From a virus (lineage: Duplodnaviria > Heunggongvirae > Uroviricota > Caudoviricetes), in IMG/VR virus record IMGVR_UViG_3300033146_002139, positions 39,707 through 103,706 of that record: a stretch of DNA of 64,000 nucleotides, one strand, 5' to 3'. The position numbers were made by a program, and so were the translations under genes. Positions within the stretch are counted from its first letter, which is position 1. The number at the start of each line of letters is the position of its first letter. Below the pieces are notes generated by a model. That model was given only the letters and a program-made list of their open reading frames with translations. It did no database searches and was not told where the DNA came from. Positions 41,339 through 48,026 of this stretch are shown piece by piece.

Positions 41339-43999
41339 TTATATATTCCCTTTTATAAATTCAGTCATCATTCGTGGTGTTCCAGTGTCAAAGCCGACAA
41401 AATCCATCATTCCTGCATCAGAAGGGTCTGCTATAGTAAAATCATTTGAGACCATTCCTACAACTATGAGCTGTGCATTTGGTTTATTCATTTGATTTCT
41501 ATATCTTTTTAAGGCTTCAAATGGATGGATTTTTCCTGAGTATGTTTCCGAATCTGTATTACCTGTCCAATAAATAGAGCCTTTTCTTCTTGCGAGCCAA
41601 GTCTTGTTTGGAGTAGTAGGGCACCACACTATGCCATCATGTTCTATCCATTCCGCCTTGAATGGTCTATTATCCTTGTTAGTCGAGTTCTGTAATGGTG
41701 CAAATTGACTTCTTTTAAGAATCCCTATCTCCAAGTAGTTTTTATGATGAGCATTGTCTATTTTAGTATAAGACACCGAATGCCCTGCCAATATACATGC
41801 AAAAGCAAATGAATTCGAACGACTCTCTTCTTTTTGGCAAAACCTATTTTTTTTGAGGTGTCCATCGGCAATCATAGAGGTATGGATAAACAAATTAAGT
41901 TGTTCTTTCGTTAACTCCCTAAACCAATCAAGTTTAATGGATTTGTCGTTTTCCATTAGGTTTATAAAAGCACTAGAACCTTTCTTGTTTATATAAAAAA
42001 CAGTCATATCTTCTTTTGGACAATCTTCTCTCCATTCTCTATTGGCCTGTTCTTTGCTTAACGACTCTTTTGAGGCTCCGAGATAATCGTTTAGAGCCAA
42101 TCTGATTTTTTCCACATTCCTAGGATTTGCTTTGTGTGATTGAGAAAAATTAATTGATTTTGACGGAGATATGTAGCCTTCGGTATATATCCATGCTAGT
42201 AATTCTACAAATGAGTTTGACCATTTTTCTTTAACGGGGAGATTACTATCCTGAGCAGAACACTGAATATAATCAACTTTATTTAAAGTTTCTGATGTTT
42301 TCCATCTCCTTCCCCATGCTTCTTCGTTGGATTTATTTGTCGTTCTGTTTTTAACTGGCCATCTGTGATTTGCAGTTGACAAGGAAGAATGCCCCCTTCC
42401 TTCTATGTGTAACATTTTTCTTTTAGCCTTTGGAAATATATTTATTGAAGAAGCATTCTGCCATTCACCATTTCCATTTTCATGATTCAGCGTATACAGT
42501 TCTTCGTTTTCTTTTAAATTATCATACGATTTCCATCCTTCCGATGTTAATATCTCTGTTTCTTCGTCAACACAATACACTATAAATGTATCTATATCCA
42601 TTTTCTTCTCTATAGCATGCATCATTGGAAGTGCACAGTCTGTACCCCTAAAATCTAAACCTTTAACACTGTCTATTATTTTAGGCATATCCATCTTTGG
42701 AGAGATATTTAGTTCCGTTAATGCCGAAGCTCCCCATCCACCATTGCCACCATTACCGCCACCAGCGAAAGCTGTAACTACATAATTTCTCTCAGTTCTT
42801 GCAGTAACCATTGCCATTGCCGCAGAAGCTGTTCTTGGTGTTAATACAGACGACCCTGAAATATTGCTCCATGTCATAGACCCTGATACATCAAGTGCTA
42901 ACATAATATTTTTTCCGGTACTTTCAACATTGCCAAATGATAAGTAAAAAGCTTCATCCAATGCATCAAGTATTCTTTGATTGTGTTTCCATGTTAAGTT
43001 TCCTTTAACTCCACTGCCTGATGCATATACAAGTGTAGCATCTAATAGTTGTAATGGATGTACTCTTGATTTTTTAATTAACTCGGCATTAGTCAATTTA
43101 TCCTCTATAAAGGAAAGTGTTTTCATATCGCTATTAGATATCAATCCACTAGCTGTAAATTTTCCAAGACTTCTAATTATAGCTGTTAGACCTAGATTTT
43201 GTAAAAGAGCTTTTTGAACCTTAGCAGATGTTCTAAACTCTGTTCCAATCATTTCTTCTGTTAATCTGTATTCGTTGATAATAGAGATAATTTCTTTTTC
43301 ATTATCACACATCTTTGCAAGCTCAAATCCTTTTAAAAACTTAAAGTCCGCATCATGTTTTAATTCTTCGGAAATTTCTCCGGTAATAGCATATTTGTAT
43401 AATGCTGAATATCTATTGTCCAATGGAGTAATATGATTTAATCTTAAAAGGTCTTTATGATTCCATCCGTTTCTATTTCTATACTTTACCATTTGGAAAG
43501 TAAGTTTATCAAGTGGCTTATCATACCATTTTGCAAAAGCCGCTTTAACTGTAGTTCCCCATCCTCTTAAAGATTTTATCATAGAGGCAAACTCAAACAA
43601 GTGAGTTCCTATTCTTGCTACCTTGTGCAGGTTTTCTACAACATAAGCTTTTTCTTCATTTGTTCCATATGTCAATACTAAAGCCATAGCATATAATGCT
43701 TGGTCGTTTTTTCTAGCTCTACCATCTTTAGAAATTTCAATAGCTTTACTTGCTACAAGAACCCCTTGTCCATCTTTTATCATATTGATAATATGGTTGG
43801 AGTTTTCTTTTGTAAGTTTTTTTGGTGATGCATAATAGCTTCCACCTTCAGAACCTAGTATTAAAAATCTAAGTAATTTTTGTTCGTCTGTAACTCTAAA
43901 AACAAAACCATTTTCACTGTTTTTTACTTGTCCTGTTTTAGCTTTTGTTTTTTGATGTGTAGGTTTGTTTCTCGTTCCTAAATCTGCATAAATTGACAT
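41339..43999 (-). CDS. rsr: Ro60 (TROVE + vWA) RNA-binding protein, intein-containing precursor (547 aa after splicing)
   Basis: NSENGFVF, LRFLILGSEGGSYY, KYRNRNGWNHKDLLRL, SRVHP, vWA MIDAS LALDVSGSM, GTDCALPM and FIVY|TDSET. Confidence 0.95.
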   Translation of the reverse strand: MSIYADLGTRNKPTHQKTKAKTGQVKNSENGFVFRVTDEQKLLRFLILGSEGGSYYASPKKLTKENSNHIINMIKDGQGVLVASKAIEISKDGRARKNDQALYAMALVLTYGTNEEKAYVVENLHKVARIGTHLFEFASMIKSLRGWGTTVKAAFAKWYDKPLDKLTFQMVKYRNRNGWNHKDLLRLNHITPLDNRYSALYKYAITGEISEELKHDADFKFLKGFELAKMCDNEKEIISIINEYRLTEEMIGTEFRTSAKVQKALLQNLGLTAIIRSLGKFTASGLISNSDMKTLSFIEDKLTNAELIKKSRVHPLQLLDATLVYASGSGVKGNLTWKHNQRILDALDEAFYLSFGNVESTGKNIMLALDVSGSMTWSNISGSSVLTPRTASAAMAMVTARTERNYVVTAFAGGGNGGNGGWGASALTELNISPKMDMPKIIDSVKGLDFRGTDCALPMMHAIEKKMDIDTFIVYCVDEETEILTSEGWKSYDNLKENEELYTLNHENGNGEWQNASSINIFPKAKRKMLHIEGRGHSSLSTANHRWPVKNRTTNKSNEEAWGRRWKTSETLNKVDYIQCSAQDSNLPVKEKWSNSFVELLAWIYTEGYISPSKSINFSQSHKANPRNVEKIRLALNDYLGASKESLSKEQANREWREDCPKEDMTVFYINKKGSSAFINLMENDKSIKLDWFRELTKEQLNLFIHTSMIADGHLKKNRFCQKEESRSNSFAFACILAGHSVSYTKIDNAHHKNYLEIGILKRSQFAPLQNSTNKDNRPFKAEWIEHDGIVWCPTTPNKTWLARRKGSIYWTGNTDSETYSGKIHPFEALKRYRNQMNKPNAQLIVVGMVSNDFTIADPSDAGMMDFVGFDTGTPRMMTEFIKGNI
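41558..42574 (-). mobile_element. Intein with LAGLIDADG homing endonuclease, 339 aa
   Basis: Starts CVDEETEIL, has block B TANH, endonuclease motifs LLAWIYTEG and TSMIADG, and ends WTGN followed by Thr. Removing it restores FIVYTDSET. Confidence 0.92.
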
Positions 44000-44030
44000 A
44001 ATCTTTCTCCTTCGGTCAAATTTTTTATTT

Positions 44031-44726
44031 TTATTGTGGTGTTGGCTTTGTATATACTATCTGATTCTCTATTTTTCCCTGAGCACTATAAGCTATTTTT
44101 AAGAAAGCCATATTTCTTTGCTCTGATATTTTTATATCATATTTTGTTGTTAGCATTGTAATTATATCTTTAATAGAGGTGCATTTTAAAAGATTGAATT
44201 TCATATTTAACCACATATCGTTTACACTTGGGTATTTAGCTAGTATATCATCGTAATAATAGTCAACTATTAAACTTATATTATGTATTGATATGTACGT
44301 ATCACCATAGTACACAGTATAAGAATGATGTTCTCTTTTTATCCATTCCGGGTAGTTTTTAGTAGCTTCGTCATGTTTATCGTTAAAATTTTCTATTTCT
44401 TGTAAAAGGGTGTTCATTTTATTATCAGTCTTTTTTTGTTTTTTTAATTTACTAAAAACGTTTGCAAGATTAAAAGAAGAGTGGTTCTTATTGTCTCTTT
44501 TTTTGCGTACTAAATCTCTAAACAGTGTATTAAGTTTTCTAGCTTCTTTGCTTAGTAAAGAAACTATGTTTACAGCATCCCTCCATTCATTGGTTTTCAT
44601 TTTAGCGTCAATCTTATCTCGATAAACTTTTCCTGCCATTGTCTCTATTTGTCTTTTCCATTGACGGAATATTTCAGCCTTATTTTCGTTTAAAAAATCT
44701 ATTATCAATTCGTTGGTTTCTTTCAT
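44031..44726 (-). CDS. Hypothetical protein between the Y RNA and Ro60 genes
   Basis: 231-aa ORF with RBS GAGG. Confidence 0.7.
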   Translation of the reverse strand: MKETNELIIDFLNENKAEIFRQWKRQIETMAGKVYRDKIDAKMKTNEWRDAVNIVSLLSKEARKLNTLFRDLVRKKRDNKNHSSFNLANVFSKLKKQKKTDNKMNTLLQEIENFNDKHDEATKNYPEWIKREHHSYTVYYGDTYISIHNISLIVDYYYDDILAKYPSVNDMWLNMKFNLLKCTSIKDIITMLTTKYDIKISEQRNMAFLKIAYSAQGKIENQIVYTKPTPQ

Positions 44727-44749
44727 AAACCCTCTTTTTTATAAAGTAT

Positions 44750-44815
44750 AAGCTCAACAAGTAGATGCCATGGAATTTATTTTAGACAGATAACCCATTA
44801 GCTTCGGTTGAGCTT
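44750..44815 (-). ncRNA. Classical end-paired Y RNA candidate
   Basis: AAGCTCAAC-[C]-GAA-GCTAATGG-GTTATC...CCATGGC-[ATCTA]-CTT-GTTGAGCTT: 9-bp terminal stem, bulged C and opposite-strand bulge. Exact ends are uncertain. Confidence 0.75.
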
Positions 44816-44837
44816 TTATATTATTTATTAGTAGTAA

Positions 44838-44909
44838 TAGACCCACAAGGAATCGAACCTCGATTAATTGCACCAAAAGCAATTGTGCTAACCATTACAC
44901 TACAGGTCT
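44838..44909 (-). tRNA. tRNA-Gln(TTG)
   Basis: Cloverleaf with anticodon arm ATTGC-TTTTGGT-GCAAT and T loop TTCGATT; no encoded CCA. Confidence 0.9.
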
Positions 44910-44914
44910 GTTTG

Positions 44915-44999
44915 TGCACTCAGAGGGATTCGAACCCTCATTTCCTTTCAGAAGCCAGCTTCTAAGGCTGGTGCGTCTGCCCAGTTCCGCCACGAGTAC
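44915..44999 (-). tRNA. tRNA-Leu(TAG)
   Basis: CCAGC-CTTAGAA-GCTGG, long variable arm, T loop TTCGAAT. Confidence 0.92.
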
Positions 45000-45020
45000 A
45001 TATGTTAAATTGTTTTTTCC

Positions 45021-45106
45021 TCAGTGCAGTACGGACTTCCACCGTTAGCTCTTATAGTTAGTTTCCGGCTTTAACTATAAGTTCACCCCTGAACATTTCG
45101 AGTGTT
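45021..45106 (-). ncRNA. Unidentified structured element between tRNA-Pro and tRNA-Leu
   Basis: Three hairpins, including a perfect 10-bp stem CTTATAGTTA/TAACTATAAG and ACGG-TGGAAGT-CCGT. Confidence 0.35.
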
Positions 45107-45220
45107 AAGTATTGGCTATCTTTATTTTATTGTTCAGTGTTTAAAATAGCAAAACCACGATATACTCTTTTTTATCTTCGATGCATCTAGGATAAAGGAT
45201 AAATATAAAAACCCTTATAG

Positions 45221-45294
45221 TCAGGATAGCTGGACTCGAACCAGCGTGACCTCCGCCCCAAACGGAGTGAGACAACCAACTGCTCTATATCCTG
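45221..45294 (-). tRNA. tRNA-Pro(TGG)
   Basis: Acceptor CAGGATA/TATCCTG, CTCCG-TTTGGGG-CGGAG, T loop TTCGAGT. Confidence 0.92.
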
Positions 45295-45299
45295 GTATT

Positions 45300-45785
45300 T
45301 TAATACTTCAGTATTCCTACATGAAACTCTTTGTGGTGAGTCGGACATAATACATCAAGATTTTTAATGTCATTATTCTTTCTATCGCAATCTCTATGGT
45401 GAACTTGAAGAACTTTGACTACAGCATATCCACATATTGAACACTTCTTGTTGTAAAACTCTAAAGCCTTTCTTCTATAAGACCATTTTCCACCTTTATA
45501 ATTCGGATGATTAATTCCTGTCCTATAGTGCTTATTATTAAAAGATGCTGAACAACTCCTACTACAAAAAAATCTATTGGACTTGCTGTTTTTAGCCATA
45601 GAGCTCGTTACATACACATCCTTTCCACAATGACTACATTTTTTATCGTTTCCCATTTTCTTTGAATCAAGGTTACACTTTGTACTGCAAAAGTATTTAT
45701 AATTTTGTTTTTTATAGTATTTTACTATTTTTGCTTCTTTCTCAAAGACTGCATTACAATGAGAACAACTGACTTTTGTTTTCAT
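45300..45785 (-). CDS. HNH endonuclease with zinc-finger repeats
   Basis: CSHC and FCS..C repeats; CSICG...LQVHHRDCDRKNNDIKNLDVLCPTHH. Confidence 0.88.
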   Translation of the reverse strand: MKTKVSCSHCNAVFEKEAKIVKYYKKQNYKYFCSTKCNLDSKKMGNDKKCSHCGKDVYVTSSMAKNSKSNRFFCSRSCSASFNNKHYRTGINHPNYKGGKWSYRRKALEFYNKKCSICGYAVVKVLQVHHRDCDRKNNDIKNLDVLCPTHHKEFHVGILKY

Positions 45786-45798
45786 AAATTCCTTATGT

Positions 45799-45840
45799 CC
45801 TCGCCCAAACGAGGAGGCTTACCAATTAGCCCACCACCAG
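45799..45840 (-). pseudogene. 5' half of a second tRNA-Pro (truncated)
   Basis: CTGGTGG-TG-GGCT-AATTGGTA-AGCC-T-CCTCG-TTTGGG-CGAGG, followed by the RBS and ATG of the HNH gene. The T arm and 3' acceptor strand are absent. Confidence 0.7.
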
Positions 45841-45847
45841 GTATTTG

Positions 45848-45930
45848 CAGAAGATAAGAGACTCGAACTCCCAAGTCATTTCTGACGACAGTTTAGCAAA
45901 CTGCTTCCTTACCAATTAGGGTAATCTTCT
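45848..45930 (-). tRNA. tRNA-Ser(GCT)
   Basis: Acceptor AGAAGAT/ATCTTCT, GCAGT-TTGCTAA-ACTGT, long variable arm. Confidence 0.9.
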
Positions 45931-46000
45931 GTGTTGCCTTACACTACTGACAAATAGTGCAAGGACTTTTTTTTGTTCATTATATATTATTTTTAAGGTG

Positions 46001-46204
46001 CTATGCTTTCTTCGATGGTAAAATCTTATACATTCCTGTACCACAATCAGGACATTTTCCTTTCATTGCAGGTCTGCCATTTTTCATAACAACCTCTTCT
46101 GTTTCGCTCATAATCTTTTTGGCTTTGCATTTAACACAATAGCCTTCTTTAGGGTCTTTTACTTCACTCATTTTCATTTCCTCATTTTGTTTTTGGTTTG
46201 ACAT
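46001..46204 (-). CDS. DUF5679-like zinc-ribbon protein
   Basis: GYCVKCK...MKNGRPAMKGKCPDCGTGMYKI; the real start may be the internal MSEVK. Confidence 0.75.
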   Translation of the reverse strand: MSNQKQNEEMKMSEVKDPKEGYCVKCKAKKIMSETEEVVMKNGRPAMKGKCPDCGTGMYKILPSKKA

Positions 46205-46230
46205 TTATATTAAAATGCTTACAATCTTTA

Positions 46231-46351
46231 CTTGGATGACGAGATTCGAACTCGCATCACTCTATTAGAATTAGATAACGATTTTCATTCGGCTTGTGAA
46301 AGCAATAGTTAAAAATCGGGTTTAGTGTTCTACCAATTAAACTACATCCAA
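46231..46351 (-). ncRNA. tRNA-scaffold Y RNA candidate 1
   Basis: Acceptor TTGGATG/CATCCAA, D arm and T loop TTCGAAT. The anticodon arm is replaced by CGATTTTTA-[ACTA]-TT-GCTT-TCAC-AAGC-[C]-GAA-TGAAAATCG-TTATC. Confidence 0.8.
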
Positions 46352-46368
46352 GTATTTTTAATAGTTGT

Positions 46369-46492
46369 ACAAGAGAGAGGGACTCGAACCCCCGACCGCC
46401 TTATTAACTGTAAGATAAAGAATTTCATTCGGTCCGTGAAGACAAATAGTTGAAATTCGTTTTAGTGCTCTAACCATCTGAGCTACCTCTTG
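46369..46492 (-). ncRNA. tRNA-scaffold Y RNA candidate 2
   Basis: Acceptor CAAGAGG/TCTCTTG, GCTC/GAGC D stem, T loop TTCGAGT. Insert GAATTTCA-[ACTA]-TTT-GTC-TTCACG-GAC-[C]-GAA-TGAAATTC-TTTATC. Confidence 0.82.
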
Positions 46493-46501
46493 TACTTTGT
46501 G

Positions 46502-46646
46502 CCGAGAAGGCAGGAATTGAACCTGCGACACGTAATTCCGATAACCAATTACTCCGGCTTAAAAACTAATCTTGTAGGATTACGACATTTAAACGAATAA
46601 TGTAATTGAATTTATATTAATGCTCTACCAACTGAGCTACTTCTCG
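46502..46646 (-). ncRNA. tRNA-scaffold Y RNA candidate 3
   Basis: Acceptor CGAGAAG/CTTCTCG, T loop TTCAATT. Insert CAATTAC-[ATTA]-TTC-GTTTAAA...TTTAAGC-[C]-GGA-GTAATTG-GTTATC. Confidence 0.8.
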
Positions 46647-46663
46647 ATATGTTTGTTTAATTT

Positions 46664-46873
46664 TTAAAGATGTCTATCGTCTTTCTCACTATACTCATGC
46701 TCGAACCTCGGTCGAACCTTGTCGTATTCCTCTTTAATGAGTCTATCTACTATTGCAGATTGGTCTTCATTTTTAGAGAAGAAAGCTAGTTCCTTAATGA
46801 GGCTTATAGACTTCAAGGACAAACTAAACGTTTTATTGTTTTTTTTCATTTGTTTTATTGTTTTTCTTTTCAT
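46664..46873 (-). CDS. Ribbon-helix-helix DNA-binding protein
   Basis: KTFSLS (beta strand), helix, then QSAIVDRLIKEE. Confidence 0.6.
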   Translation of the reverse strand: MKRKTIKQMKKNNKTFSLSLKSISLIKELAFFSKNEDQSAIVDRLIKEEYDKVRPRFEHEYSEKDDRHL

Positions 46874-46897
46874 TTATTTGCTATTAGATTAAATTGG

Positions 46898-46927
46898 GGT
46901 GAGGAAGCCTATCCTTGCTTCCCCACC
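46898..46927 (-). terminator. GC-rich hairpin, terminator or processing signal
   Basis: GGTGGGGAAGC-AAGGATAG-GCTTCCTCACC, an 11-bp stem with a weak T tract. Confidence 0.5.
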
Positions 46928-46974
46928 AAGTTAGTTAAATTGCATTATAGATTCGCAGTCTATTGCATTCTGAG

Positions 46975-47215
46975 TTTTTGCCTATCAAAGATTAAATTGT
47001 GATTTGCTATTACTAAGAGTCATGCTCTACCACTGAGCTATTCCGGGATATTTTCTTATGCTTCTTAGACCCGGAAATTGGATTTGAACCAACGACACAA
47101 ACTTAATTTTTATCACATGCTTAGACTTTTTACGGCTACTATTCGGCGATACACTTACACTCAATATAATACTGAATAGCTACTCCACTCATAAGGGAAT
47201 AACTAGGATGACAGA
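46975..47215 (-). ncRNA. Circularly permuted tRNA-like RNA (YrlA-type Y RNA candidate); ends uncertain
   Basis: The order is T arm (GTTGG-TTCAAAT-CCAAT), then acceptor TTCCGGG...CCCGGAA closed by a loop, then D arm (GCTC-AGTGGTA-GAGC). GCCGAATAG lies upstream at 47139-47147. Confidence 0.7.
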
Positions 47216-47220
47216 TAAAA

Positions 47221-47958
47221 CTAACCGAAAATATGTGAAATTATATCTTTACCAACAAAAGAGTCTACAGCGACACATTCATTCGCTCTACTTCTAGCCG
47301 ATTTAATGTCGTTCAAAAGAGCATCTATCTTATTCAAGATTTCAGCTTTTTTTGCAGAATTAACCATACCTGTTTTATGCACGGTATTATAATATCCAAC
47401 CTGCTTAGTTGTTGAGACTTCTTTTATTTGAGCCTTATGCTCTTTAGTCGCCTTGTCTACAACAATAAAGTCTCTTTCTGTTTCTGTTCTATAGACAGGG
47501 ACAGGAGCTGCTTTAAAAGTAAACTTCCTTTCGTCTGCATTGGATTCCCATAATTGAGCAGAATCATATACTGGTATTACGATGGCAACTTCTCTAATTT
47601 TTTTAACTTCTTTTTCTAGGGCTAACAATGCTGTGGCGGATAAAGAGATAGTTTTATCTCCTAGTGTTAATTCTGCTCTAGCATTTCCGGAGCTATTAGT
47701 TTCTTCTTTAGTAATAACGATGTTTATTGCTTTTGCAATAGCCTTTCCGGTGTACTCTAGTCTCTCAGGAACAGTGGTTATTATTTCTTTCCCATCCGGC
47801 GGAATAACAGTTGTATCTTCCACAAGAGTGTGGTATGTTTTACTAAAACCTTGAAAAGGACTTTGTTTTCCAAAAAGACCTCTAGTTTCTGATACGATAT
47901 CTTCAGTTTGTTTACTAACGCCAGGTAATGATGCTAGTACTTCATGTAGTTTTCCCAT
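47221..47958 (-). CDS. Conserved ~245-aa protein (recalled as DUF7873-like)
   Basis: MGKLHEVLA, FQGFSKTY..L.ED, LLALEKEV, AT.EHKAQ, VGYY and ARSRAN match a family I recognise but cannot verify here. Confidence 0.6.
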   Translation of the reverse strand: MGKLHEVLASLPGVSKQTEDIVSETRGLFGKQSPFQGFSKTYHTLVEDTTVIPPDGKEIITTVPERLEYTGKAIAKAINIVITKEETNSSGNARAELTLGDKTISLSATALLALEKEVKKIREVAIVIPVYDSAQLWESNADERKFTFKAAPVPVYRTETERDFIVVDKATKEHKAQIKEVSTTKQVGYYNTVHKTGMVNSAKKAEILNKIDALLNDIKSARSRANECVAVDSFVGKDIISHIFG

Positions 47959-48026
47959 CTCTCTCTCCTTTGTGCTTTATTGTATTAGTCAATTGCTTAT
48001 ATATTTATTTGTTGCTGACAAGAGTT

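What the first reader, a model, noticed from the sequence alone, without database searches (positions are those of the whole stretch)
44750..44815. Minimal phage Y RNA that resembles animal Y RNAs, including the UUAUC loop motif
Seen: the 5' strand reads CAAC-C-GAAGCTAATGGGTTATCTG and the 3' strand ends CTTGTTGAGCTT, giving a 9-bp terminal stem with no tRNA-like domain. TTATC follows the upper stem here and in all three tRNA-scaffold copies. Established (from memory): human Y1/Y4 read GGUC-C-GA...GUG(A/G)GUUAUC and end CUUGAC/UUUGAC, and nematode stem-bulge RNAs conserve a UUAUC loop motif. Inference: the UUAUC element may be shared between phage/bacterial and metazoan Y RNAs, and could mark a second protein-binding site.
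Basis: partly seen in the sequence, partly recalled or inferred. Interest (0 to 1): 0.75.

Follow-up and report, generated by a model that had tools for sequence, protein, structure and literature searches.

The report
Animal-like Y RNA hairpin beside phage Ro60
A 66-base hairpin RNA gene just upstream of a phage's Ro60 gene is a small Y RNA (partner RNA of Ro60), and its family, found beside Ro60 in many phages and bacteria, carries the UUAUC motif of animal Y RNAs at the same 12-base distance from the docking site.

Summary
There is a 9-bp terminal stem, a bulged C, CGAAG, an 8-bp upper stem, then UUAUC opening a 19-nt loop. There is no tRNA-like part.

It lies 22 nt after tRNA-Gln and 0.75 kb upstream of a Ro60 gene (TROVE + vWA) on the same strand.

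- **Family.** A covariance model of 12 such hairpins found 63 matches in 29 Ro60-carrying phage contigs plus this window and 159 in 80 bacterial Ro60 loci. Every match is on the Ro60 strand.
- **Independent check.** A model built only from the bacterial matches finds exactly this one site in the 64-kb window (33.9 bits, E 6e-6).
- **Structure.** Both stems covary.
- **Motif.** UUAUC or UUACC follows the upper stem in 197 of 213 aligned matches, exactly 12 nt after the bulged C in 160. The Rfam consensus lines for animal Y RNA and nematode sbRNA show the same spacing.
- **Rfam.** Those two families are the top two hits for this hairpin, but below threshold. Seven bacterial relatives pass the sbRNA threshold.

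Verdict: a new member of a known kind, closest to Thermus phage phiLo Yrl2. The shared UUAUC is real. Its role as a second binding site is untested.

The scan has noted the same animal-type hairpins on other phage DNA.

The parts
44750..44815 (-). Hairpin-type Y RNA gene, 66 nt as drawn. The true ends are unknown.
   Evidence: Sequence and fold. R1 match 56.7 bits, but this sequence was in the seed. Bacterial-only model R2 match 33.9 bits, E 6e-6, the only hit in the window. Rfam RF01656 28.3 bits and RF00019 21.3 bits.
44807..44815 (-). Lower stem, 5' strand (AAGCUCAAC). It pairs with 44750-44758.
   Evidence: In relatives the homologous 7 pairs covary. This copy reads CAAC next to the bulge, where relatives read GGGC or GGGU.
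44750..44758 (-). Lower stem, 3' strand (GUUGAGCUU).
44803..44806 (-). CGAA: the bulged C (44806) plus GAA, the core of the Ro60 docking motif.
   Evidence: Sequence. CGAA or CGGA is conserved across the family. In phiLo Yrl2 each CGAA base contributes 3- to 4-fold to Ro60 binding (PMC12135203).
44794..44802 (-). Upper stem, 5' strand (GCUAAUGGG, one bulged A).
   Evidence: All 8 upper-stem pairs show compensatory changes in relatives.
44767..44774 (-). Upper stem, 3' strand (UCCAUGGC).
44789..44793 (-). [quoted passage not shown]
   Evidence: Conserved as UUAUC or UUACC in 197 of 213 relatives, with 12-nt spacing in 160.
44775..44793 (-). 19-nt A/U-rich terminal loop, predicted open.
   Evidence: no distal helix in this copy.
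44759..44766 (-). 3'-side internal loop AUCUAC, then UU. The UU pairs with the G and A that follow the bulged C in the canonical Y RNA drawing.
   Evidence: Rfam Y_RNA alignment. The G-U pair next to the bulge is near-invariant in relatives (51 of 54 and 139 of 149). RNAfold's own minimum-energy fold pairs this GA with UC at 44765-44764 instead.
44838..44909 (-). tRNA-Gln, the last tRNA of the cluster. It ends 22 nt before the hairpin.
44031..44726 (-). 231-aa ORF of unknown family between the Y RNA and Ro60. Its start codon lies 23 nt after the hairpin.
   Evidence: No Pfam, PHROG or Atlas family.
41339..43999 (-). Ro60 orthologue gene (886 aa, TROVE + vWA_Ro60), the presumed protein partner.
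   Evidence: PDB matches to animal Ro60 (9NEN 7.9e-85, 1YVP 9.9e-83) and Deinococcus Rsr (2NVO 1.7e-80).
46231..46646 (-). Three tRNA-shaped RNAs carrying the same bulged-C helix plus UUAUC in place of the anticodon arm. These are sister Y modules and serve as context.

Best explanation
Window 44815-44750 (minus strand) encodes a small hairpin-type Y RNA, the non-coding partner of the phage's own Ro60 protein.

**Shown here.**
- It has the family's anatomy: terminal stem, bulged C followed by GAA, a G-U pair beside the bulge, an 8-9 bp upper stem and UUAUC.
- It sits on the Ro60 strand just upstream of the gene.
- It is recognised by a model trained only on bacterial Ro60-adjacent RNAs.

**Inferred from established Ro60 biology.**
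- The RNA is cut out of the long tRNA / Y-RNA / Ro60 transcript. No promoter or terminator of its own was seen.
- It docks through the bulged-C helix on the outer surface of the Ro60 ring.
- Having no tRNA-like or other effector module, it mainly acts as a lid or regulator of Ro60's RNA-binding cavity, or as a stabiliser of the protein. It is less likely to tether a nuclease.

**Inferred, less certain.** UUAUC lies a fixed 12 nt (about one helical turn) from the bulged C in phages and bacteria, and in the Rfam consensus for animals. It is therefore best read as part of the Ro60-RNP module itself: a second contact with Ro60 or with a partner held against Ro60. A site for an unrelated protein is less likely.
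For: **Context.**
- Ro60 (TROVE + vWA_Ro60) lies at 41339-43999 on the same strand.
- The hairpin comes 22 nt after tRNA-Gln and 23 nt before the next ORF.

**Family.**
- Model R1 gave 63 matches in 29 phage Ro60 loci plus this window and 159 in 80 bacterial Ro60 loci. All are on the Ro60 strand and nearly all lie within about 2.5 kb of the gene.
- There is one match in the whole 167.7-kb phage genome.
- The leave-out model R2, built from bacterial sequences only, finds this site alone in the window.

**Structure.**
- 87-94% of cells are paired and 14-16 of 17 pairs show compensatory changes.
- 0 of 500 shuffles reach the covariation score, and slid controls stay at or below 47% paired.

**Motif.**
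- UUAUC or UUACC is present in 61 of 63 phage matches and 136 of 150 bacterial matches.
- A motif-blind scan for bulged-C helices found the motif in 191 of 753 on the Ro60 strand and 2 of 481 on the other strand. Background is 0.8%.
- Spacing is 12 nt in 160 of 213 matches, the same as in the Rfam Y_RNA and sbRNA consensus lines.

**Precedent.** Thermus phage phiLo Yrl2 is a hairpin of roughly 60 nt (its stem is mapped to G4-C15 and G48-G59) with CGAA at C10-A13. A simplified Yrl2 mimic binds the phage Ro60 at 16.6 nM (PMC12135203). Hairpin-type second Y RNAs are known in three bacteria (PMC4201824).
Against: - No expression or binding data exist for this RNA, and its ends are unknown.
- Next to the bulge this copy reads CAAC-C-GAAG, so it misses the G of the published GNCGAA motif. 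It is the most divergent lower stem among all matches, and binding to Ro60 could be weaker or altered.
- It scores below the curated thresholds of both animal Y RNA families and is not seen by the YrlA model.
- It lies in what would be the 5' leader of the ORF231-Ro60 message, so a purely cis-acting role is not excluded.
- For UUAUC, the last two bases open a short distal helix in 59% of short relatives against 32% of shuffles. This argues for a structural role in many members.
- In nematode sbRNAs the motif is dispensable in minimal upper-stem RNAs (PMC4450293).
Confidence: 0.8

Rival explanations
1. The hairpin is a cis-acting element in the 5' leader of the ORF231-Ro60 message. It would be a Ro60 docking site through which the protein controls its own operon (translation or stability), not a free stable RNA.
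For: It ends 23 nt before the start codon of the 231-aa ORF that precedes Ro60. In many bacterial loci the best hairpin lies only about 60-140 nt upstream of the Ro60 match. No promoter or terminator of its own was predicted.
Against: In the studied species the Y RNAs are also encoded upstream of rsr. In M. smegmatis they are processed from a single precursor into stable Ro60-bound RNAs (PMC4201824). Many loci carry 2-7 copies in tandem, some downstream of Ro60, which a leader element does not explain. The two roles are not mutually exclusive.
Confidence: 0.12
2. The hairpin is only a transcription terminator or an RNase processing signal that closes the tRNA cluster, with no link to Ro60.
For: It directly follows the last tRNA, and any stable hairpin can block 3' exonucleases.
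Against: - The pattern scan does not call it a terminator. The stem is A/U-rich with internal loops and no U-run follows.
- Sequence motifs (CGAA, G-U, UUAUC, ACUUG), and not just pairing, are conserved across phages and bacteria and always track Ro60 genes.
Confidence: 0.03
3. On UUAUC alone: it is a structural element (a UUA linker plus the first pairs of a small distal helix, or a turn that caps the upper stem), not a binding site. Its likeness to animal Y RNAs would then be convergence or simple inheritance of a fold.
For: In 59% of 90 short relatives, motif positions 4-5 start a helix of 3 bp or more, against 32% in shuffles (0 of 200 shuffle sets reach the observed value). Verrucomicrobial copies switch UUAUCA...UGA to UUACCU...AGG together.
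Against: This copy and about 40% of the short relatives have no such helix yet keep the motif. The first three bases UUA are as conserved as the last two. The strict 12-nt spacing from the Ro60 docking site is not needed for a mere loop-closing element.
Confidence: 0.35

Closest known systems
Thermus phage phiLo Yrl2 (and Yrl1), Y RNA-like RNAs of a phage Ro60 (PMC12135203)
   Same: Phage-encoded, upstream of the phage Ro60 gene. A short single hairpin whose two ends pair, with CGAA at positions 10-13 exactly as here and no tRNA-like domain. Binding to phage Ro60 has been shown, with each CGAA base mattering.
   Different: The phiLo RNAs were found by eye through CGAA plus folding. No UUAUC or animal-type upper stem is mentioned in that paper, and I could not read their sequences. 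The phiLo Ro60 is too divergent to appear among my Ro60 matches. Nothing has been tested for the RNA in this window.
Hairpin-type second Y RNAs of bacteria: D. radiodurans Yrn2, S. Typhimurium YrlB, M. smegmatis YrlB (Chen et al. 2014, PMC4201824)
   Same: Encoded next to rsr/Ro60 on the same strand. A long hairpin formed by the 5' and 3' ends, with a small loop and the CGAA-type Ro60 motif. They coexist with tRNA-like Y RNAs in the same locus.
   Different: That paper describes GNCGAAN0-1G and a pyrimidine-rich loop and does not mention UUAUC. This copy has A instead of the first G of that motif. M. smegmatis YrlB has a T-arm, which this RNA lacks.
Nematode stem-bulge RNAs (Rfam RF01656 ceN72-3_ceN74-2) and vertebrate Y RNAs (Rfam RF00019)
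   Same: - A lower stem with a single bulged C followed by G(A/G)A.
- 12 nt from the bulge to the loop motif.
- An upper stem ending in UGGG...CCCA; this copy has UGGG...UCCA.
[quoted passage not shown]
- ACUUG on the 3' strand.
- Seven bacterial relatives pass the RF01656 gathering score.
   Different: Animal RNAs are RNA polymerase III transcripts with a 3' U-tail bound by La, and they have larger loops. sbRNAs were not recovered in immunoprecipitates of the worm Ro60 orthologue ROP-1 and act in DNA replication assays. This copy scores 28.3 and 21.3 bits, below the threshold of 38, and has CAAC where the animal consensus has GGUC.
YrlA (Rfam RF02553), the tRNA-mimicking Y RNA of bacteria and mycobacteriophages
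   Same: The same presumed partner (Ro60), the same genomic neighbourhood and the same CGAA docking helix. The window holds a weak YrlA-like element at 46994-47118 (29.7 bits).
   Different: YrlA carries T-arm, acceptor-like and D-arm modules, and this hairpin has none. The YrlA model does not match the hairpin. The Rfam YrlA consensus shows no UUAUC after the stem.

Membership tests
Y RNA in the functional sense (Ro60-bound non-coding RNA) | Encoded close to a Ro60/Rsr gene on the same strand (search criterion of Chen et al. 2014). | tested here: met
   The hairpin ends 751 nt upstream of the Ro60 start, on the same strand.
Y RNA in the functional sense (Ro60-bound non-coding RNA) | The 5' and 3' ends pair into a stem that holds a bulged-C helix. 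| tested here: met
   A 9-bp stem, unpaired C at 44806 and G-U beside it. The homologous pairs covary in relatives.
Y RNA in the functional sense (Ro60-bound non-coding RNA) | The GNCGAAN0-1G motif near the 5' end (Chen et al. 2014). | tested here: inconclusive
   This copy reads ACCGAAG. CGAA and the trailing G are present, but the first G is A. Almost all relatives have the G.
Y RNA in the functional sense (Ro60-bound non-coding RNA) | Physical binding to Ro60, and Ro60-dependent accumulation as a stable small RNA. | not testable with these tools
   No sequencing run could be listed for this phage. No RNA-protein modelling tool is offered.
Ro60-adjacent hairpin RNA family defined here (models R1, R2) | A significant match to a model built without this sequence. 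| tested here: met
   R2, built from 150 bacterial sequences only, gives 33.9 bits, E 6e-6, and is the single hit in 64 kb with filters off.
Rfam RF01656 (nematode sbRNA ceN72-3_ceN74-2) | Score at or above the curated gathering score of 38 bits. | tested here: not met
   28.3 bits. Seven bacterial relatives score 38.0-42.8 bits.
Rfam RF00019 (animal Y RNA) | Score at or above the curated gathering score of 38 bits. | tested here: not met
   21.3 bits, aligned end to end. The best phage relative, L014:5547-5656, reaches 31.7 bits.
Animal Y RNA / sbRNA | [quoted passage not shown] | tested here: met
   UGGG-UUAUC with CCAU opposite. The motif is defined in PMC4450293.
Animal Y RNA / sbRNA | RNA polymerase III transcript with a 3' oligo-U tail (La binding). 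| tested here: not met
   No U-run follows the stem (the next bases are AUACUUUAUAAAAAAG). The gene sits inside a phage operon.
YrlA (Rfam RF02553) | A tRNA-like module (T-arm, acceptor-like stem, D-arm) between the two strands of the Ro60-binding stem. | tested here: not met
   The loop is 19 nt. There is no tRNA or YrlA match over 44750-44815.
Intrinsic terminator | A G+C-rich hairpin directly followed by a U-run. | tested here: not met
   Not called by the scan. The hairpin's core (44752-44813) is 40% G+C and there is no U-run.

The most novel reading that the evidence does not exclude
The whole animal Y RNA / sbRNA signature is an ancient module tied to Ro60 and shared by bacteria, phages and animals. 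The signature is the bulged-C helix, a 12-nt spacer, an upper stem with UG-CA, and then UUA(U/C)C. On this reading UUAUC is a second contact inside the Ro60 particle. The DNA-replication role described for this motif in worms and vertebrates would be a later co-option. Alternatively, Ro60 and its RNA moved together between animals and bacteria or phages.
Probability: 0.4. Interest if true: 0.8.

Novelty: new member of a known kind. Interest (0 to 1): 0.6.

Why it matters
- **What is ordinary.** Phage and bacterial Y RNAs are known, and a short hairpin Y RNA of a phage has been shown to bind its Ro60.
- **What I did not find in the searchable papers.** A large class of Ro60-linked RNAs in phages and bacteria carries the upper-stem core and the UUA(U/C)C loop motif of animal Y RNAs and nematode sbRNAs, at the same distance from the Ro60 docking site. 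[quoted passage not shown]
- **Why the motif's role becomes testable.** If the motif belongs to the Ro60 particle, its function is unknown even in animals. It can be studied in simple systems such as mycobacteriophages or Streptomyces phages with culturable hosts.
- **Annotation.** The public YrlA model misses these RNAs, and the nematode sbRNA model can label bacterial sequences.

Tried and rejected
- **Near-identical phage DNA.** None in the phage collection for window 43000-48000.
- **Public sequencing runs.** None was listed for 41339-47200, and no RNA holder was listed. Expression could therefore not be examined.
- **Broad regular-expression and fold-density scans for CGAA helices.** Far too noisy. 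Replaced by covariance models and a stricter motif-blind scan.
- **First MAFFT alignment.** It misplaced one 3' strand, so it was redone with trimmed ends.
- **MAFFT alignment of 22 bacterial hairpins (A6).** Not used for a model, because internal loops of 5 or 6 nt shift the upper-stem register. The model-fitted alignment A5 was used instead.
- **Exact-pattern scan of viral contigs for the strictest form of the motif.** Only 8 contigs, not followed.
- **Reviews by the Wolin laboratory.** PMC10870794 and PMC6542706 are not held. I cannot exclude that the motif is mentioned there.
- **The 231-aa ORF between the RNA and Ro60.** No Pfam, PHROG or Atlas family.
- **Terminator reading.** Rejected.
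- **Chance hairpin.** Rejected.
- **Letter-by-letter alignment to human Y1/Y4 and Deinococcus Yrn1.** Not done, because no tool supplied those sequences. Rfam consensus lines were used instead.

Full report
**What is there.** The quoted strings are the reverse complement of window 44750-44815, so the element lies on the minus strand. As RNA it reads AAGCUCAAC-C-GAAGCUAAUGGGUUAUCUGUCUAAAAUAAAUUCCAUGGCAUCUACUUGUUGAGCUU.

RNAfold gives:
- a 9-bp terminal stem;
- an unpaired C (44806);
- an 8-bp upper stem with one bulged A;
- an open 19-nt loop beginning with UUAUC (44793-44789).

The energy is -16.9 kcal/mol, z = -2.85. The loop is too short for any tRNA-like domain, and neither ARAGORN nor the tRNA and YrlA models touch it. 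The pattern scan does not call it a terminator, and no U-run follows.

**Surroundings.** The window is part of a 167,706-bp virus record with direct terminal repeats. The minus strand runs in this order:
- a weak YrlA-like element (46994-47118);
- three tRNA-shaped RNAs with long inserts in place of the anticodon arm (46231-46646);
- tRNA-Ser, tRNA-Pro, tRNA-Leu and tRNA-Gln, with small ORFs between some of them (a 69-aa ORF, a DUF5679 ORF and an HNH-like ORF);
- the hairpin, 22 nt after tRNA-Gln;
- a 231-aa ORF of unknown family, starting 23 nt after the hairpin;
- an 886-aa Ro60 orthologue with TROVE and Ro60-type vWA domains.

The N-terminal 475 residues of that protein match animal Ro60 structures (9NEN 7.9e-85, 1YVP 9.9e-83) about as well as Deinococcus Rsr (2NVO 1.7e-80).

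**Is it a family?** The Ro60 protein retrieved 40 IMG/VR loci, 39 of them holding a whole Ro60 gene at 30-43% identity.
- I aligned twelve hairpins from this window and seven of these loci. On that alignment 89% of cells pair and 14 of 17 pairs show compensatory changes. No shuffle reaches the covariation score, and slid controls stay at or below 44%.
- The model R1 built from them found 63 matches in 586 kb, in 29 phage loci plus the window. Every match is on the Ro60 strand, and all but one lie within about 2.3 kb upstream of the gene.
- There is a single match in the phage's own 167.7-kb genome.
- An alignment of Ro60 proteins then retrieved 80 loci from bacterial genomes and MAGs. R1 found 159 matches there, again all on the Ro60 strand. 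The best ones lie 60-140 nt upstream of the gene.
- Pair counts on the two model-fitted alignments give 87% and 94% paired, with 16 of 17 pairs compensatory. These alignments lean towards the model.

**Leave-out test.** The window's sequence was in the R1 seed, so I built R2 from the 150 bacterial matches only. With filters off, R2 finds exactly one site in the 64-kb window on either strand: 44752-44813 (-), 33.9 bits, E 6e-6. This is the cleanest evidence that the hairpin is neither chance nor a generic hairpin.

**The UUAUC motif.**
- In the phage set the five bases after the upper stem are UUAUC in 59 of 63 matches and UUACC in 2.
- In the bacterial set they are UUAUC in 109 and UUACC in 27 of 150.
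- The models contain the motif, so I also scanned all loci for bulged-C helices while ignoring the interior. UUA(U/C)C lies 10-14 nt after the bulge in 191 of 753 helices on the Ro60 strand and in 2 of 481 on the other strand. Background is 0.8%.
- The distance from the bulged C to the motif is exactly 12 nt in 160 of 213 matches and 11-13 nt in 186. In this window's hairpin it is 12 nt.
- The consensus lines printed by Rfam show the same 12 nt for animal Y_RNA (C-gAagguaGUGGG-UUAu) and for the nematode sbRNA family (C-GGaGucgaUGGG-UUAUC).

**Likeness to animal Y RNAs.**
- On a 96-nt stretch the two best of 4227 Rfam families are RF01656 (nematode sbRNA, 28.3 bits, E 1.8e-4) and RF00019 (Y_RNA, 21.3 bits, E 0.014). 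Both align end to end, and both fall below the gathering score of 38.
- A phage relative (L014:5545-5653) reaches 33.2 and 31.7 bits.
- Seven bacterial hairpins just upstream of Ro60 pass the RF01656 gathering score at 38.0-42.8 bits.
- The verrucomicrobial consensus is UGCGGGCCGAAGAACAUGGGUUAUC...CCCACGUUCACCAACUUGUCCGCA. It shares CACCAACUUG and UGGGUUAUC letter for letter with the sbRNA consensus.

Published work describes UUA(U/C)C as conserved in sbRNAs and vertebrate Y RNAs, and as needed for the replication activity of full-length sbRNAs in vitro (PMC4450293). [quoted passage not shown] No paper in the held library links UUAUC with bacterial or phage Y RNAs. Two reviews I could not read might.

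**Link to characterised systems.**
- 357 phage records encode a Ro60 relative, mostly phages of Mycobacterium and Streptomyces.
- In Mycobacterium phage Cali two unannotated matches with UUAUC or UUACC lie in the 485-nt gap before the Ro gene.
- In Streptomyces phage Jay2Jay one match lies between a tRNA gene and the next ORF.
- Chen et al. reported YrlA-type RNAs in 254 bacteria and 22 phages, and hairpin-type second Y RNAs in three species.
- Thermus phage phiLo Yrl2 is a hairpin of roughly 60 nt with CGAA at positions 10-13, the same positions as here. A simplified Yrl2 mimic binds its Ro60 at 16.6 nM. This is the closest validated precedent.

**How it most likely works.**
- Shown: the anatomy, the family membership and the linkage to Ro60.
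- Inferred from the studied systems: the RNA is released from the operon transcript, docks on the outer face of the Ro60 ring through the bulged-C helix, and stabilises Ro60 or gates its cavity. It lacks any effector module, so a tethering role is less likely than for the tRNA-shaped neighbours.
- On UUAUC: Ro60 is the one protein certainly shared by all these systems, and the motif keeps a fixed distance from the Ro60 docking site. I therefore favour a second contact within the Ro60 particle over an unrelated second protein. This is inference only.

**Evidence against a binding role for UUAUC.** In 59% of 90 short relatives, motif positions 4-5 begin a small distal helix, against 32% in shuffles. 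One lineage shows a paired change, UUAUCA...UGA to UUACCU...AGG. This window's copy has no such helix.

**Cautions.**
- This copy has the most divergent lower stem of the family (CAAC instead of GGGC or GGGU next to the bulge) and misses the first G of GNCGAA.
- Its ends, expression and binding are unknown.
- A cis-acting leader role is not excluded.
- Several MAG loci carry long tRNA arrays, so some 'bacterial' loci may be phage DNA.

**Earlier notes of this scan.** The same animal-type hairpins beside phage Ro60 have been described on other DNA. I used those only as leads.

**Verdict.** The element is a new member of a known kind. The cross-kingdom motif with fixed spacing is the part worth following.

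Noticed in passing
window 46231-46351, 46369-46493, 46502-46646 (minus strand): Three tRNA-shaped RNAs in normal cloverleaf order. The anticodon arm is replaced by the Ro60-type helix, closed by a loop at the end where a free Y RNA has its termini. This is a circular permutation of the YrlA layout. Each has UUAUC after the upper-stem strand, 12 nt after the bulged C in two copies and 11 or 12 nt in the third, depending on which C is taken as the bulge.
   Followed up: partly
window 46994-47118 (minus strand): A weak YrlA-like element (RF02553 29.7 bits, threshold 69) with the T-arm before a closed acceptor-like stem and the D-arm. I found no convincing Ro60-type stem around it.
   Followed up: no
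window 41339-43999 (minus strand): The Ro60 gene encodes 886 aa, while relatives have about 530-575 aa and align across its whole length. The Pfam vWA_Ro60 match is split in two. This implies an insertion of about 340 aa in the vWA domain.
   Followed up: partly
window 44031-44726 (minus strand): A 231-aa ORF between the Y RNA and Ro60 has no Pfam, PHROG or Atlas family. In the Streptomyces-phage loci examined (for example L020 and L038) a shorter coding stretch occupies the same place.
   Followed up: partly
L120:3801-3869, L062:3488-3559, L093:3800-3872, L091:3863-3931, L058:3763-3832, L074:3862-3930, L072:3861-3931: Bacterial hairpins just upstream of Ro60 pass the curated threshold of a nematode sbRNA family (RF01656), while none of the 15 loci scanned has a YrlA match at threshold. 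Automatic annotation would mislabel or miss these RNAs.
   Followed up: partly
L091, L120, L062, L072 (MAG contigs labelled Verrucomicrobiota): These Ro60 loci carry arrays of about 9 to more than 20 tRNA genes on the same strand. The contigs may be large phages binned into bacterial MAGs.
   Followed up: no
L132:2591-2661 and 2867-2934 (Mycobacterium phage Cali); L133:2076-2186 (Streptomyces phage Jay2Jay): Unannotated Y RNA matches with UUAUC or UUACC in cultured, sequenced phages, next to their annotated Ro-like genes. These are usable as experimental systems.
   Followed up: partly
L014:5369-5955: Five Y RNAs in tandem directly before a phage Ro60 gene. Four are hairpins (two with UUAUC, two with UUACC). 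One is a YrlA-type RNA without the motif (RF02553 43 bits, below threshold).
   Followed up: partly
short hairpins of alignments A3 and A5, for example L074:3865-3928 against L072:3864-3929: The last bases of the motif and a downstream triplet change together (UUAUCA...UGA against UUACCU...AGG). This suggests a small distal helix in many members, though it is absent from this window's copy.
   Followed up: partly
window 45300-45785 and 46001-46204 (minus strand): An HNH-like zinc-finger ORF (weak Pfam matches) and a DUF5679 zinc-ribbon ORF are interspersed among the tRNA and Y RNA genes.
   Followed up: no
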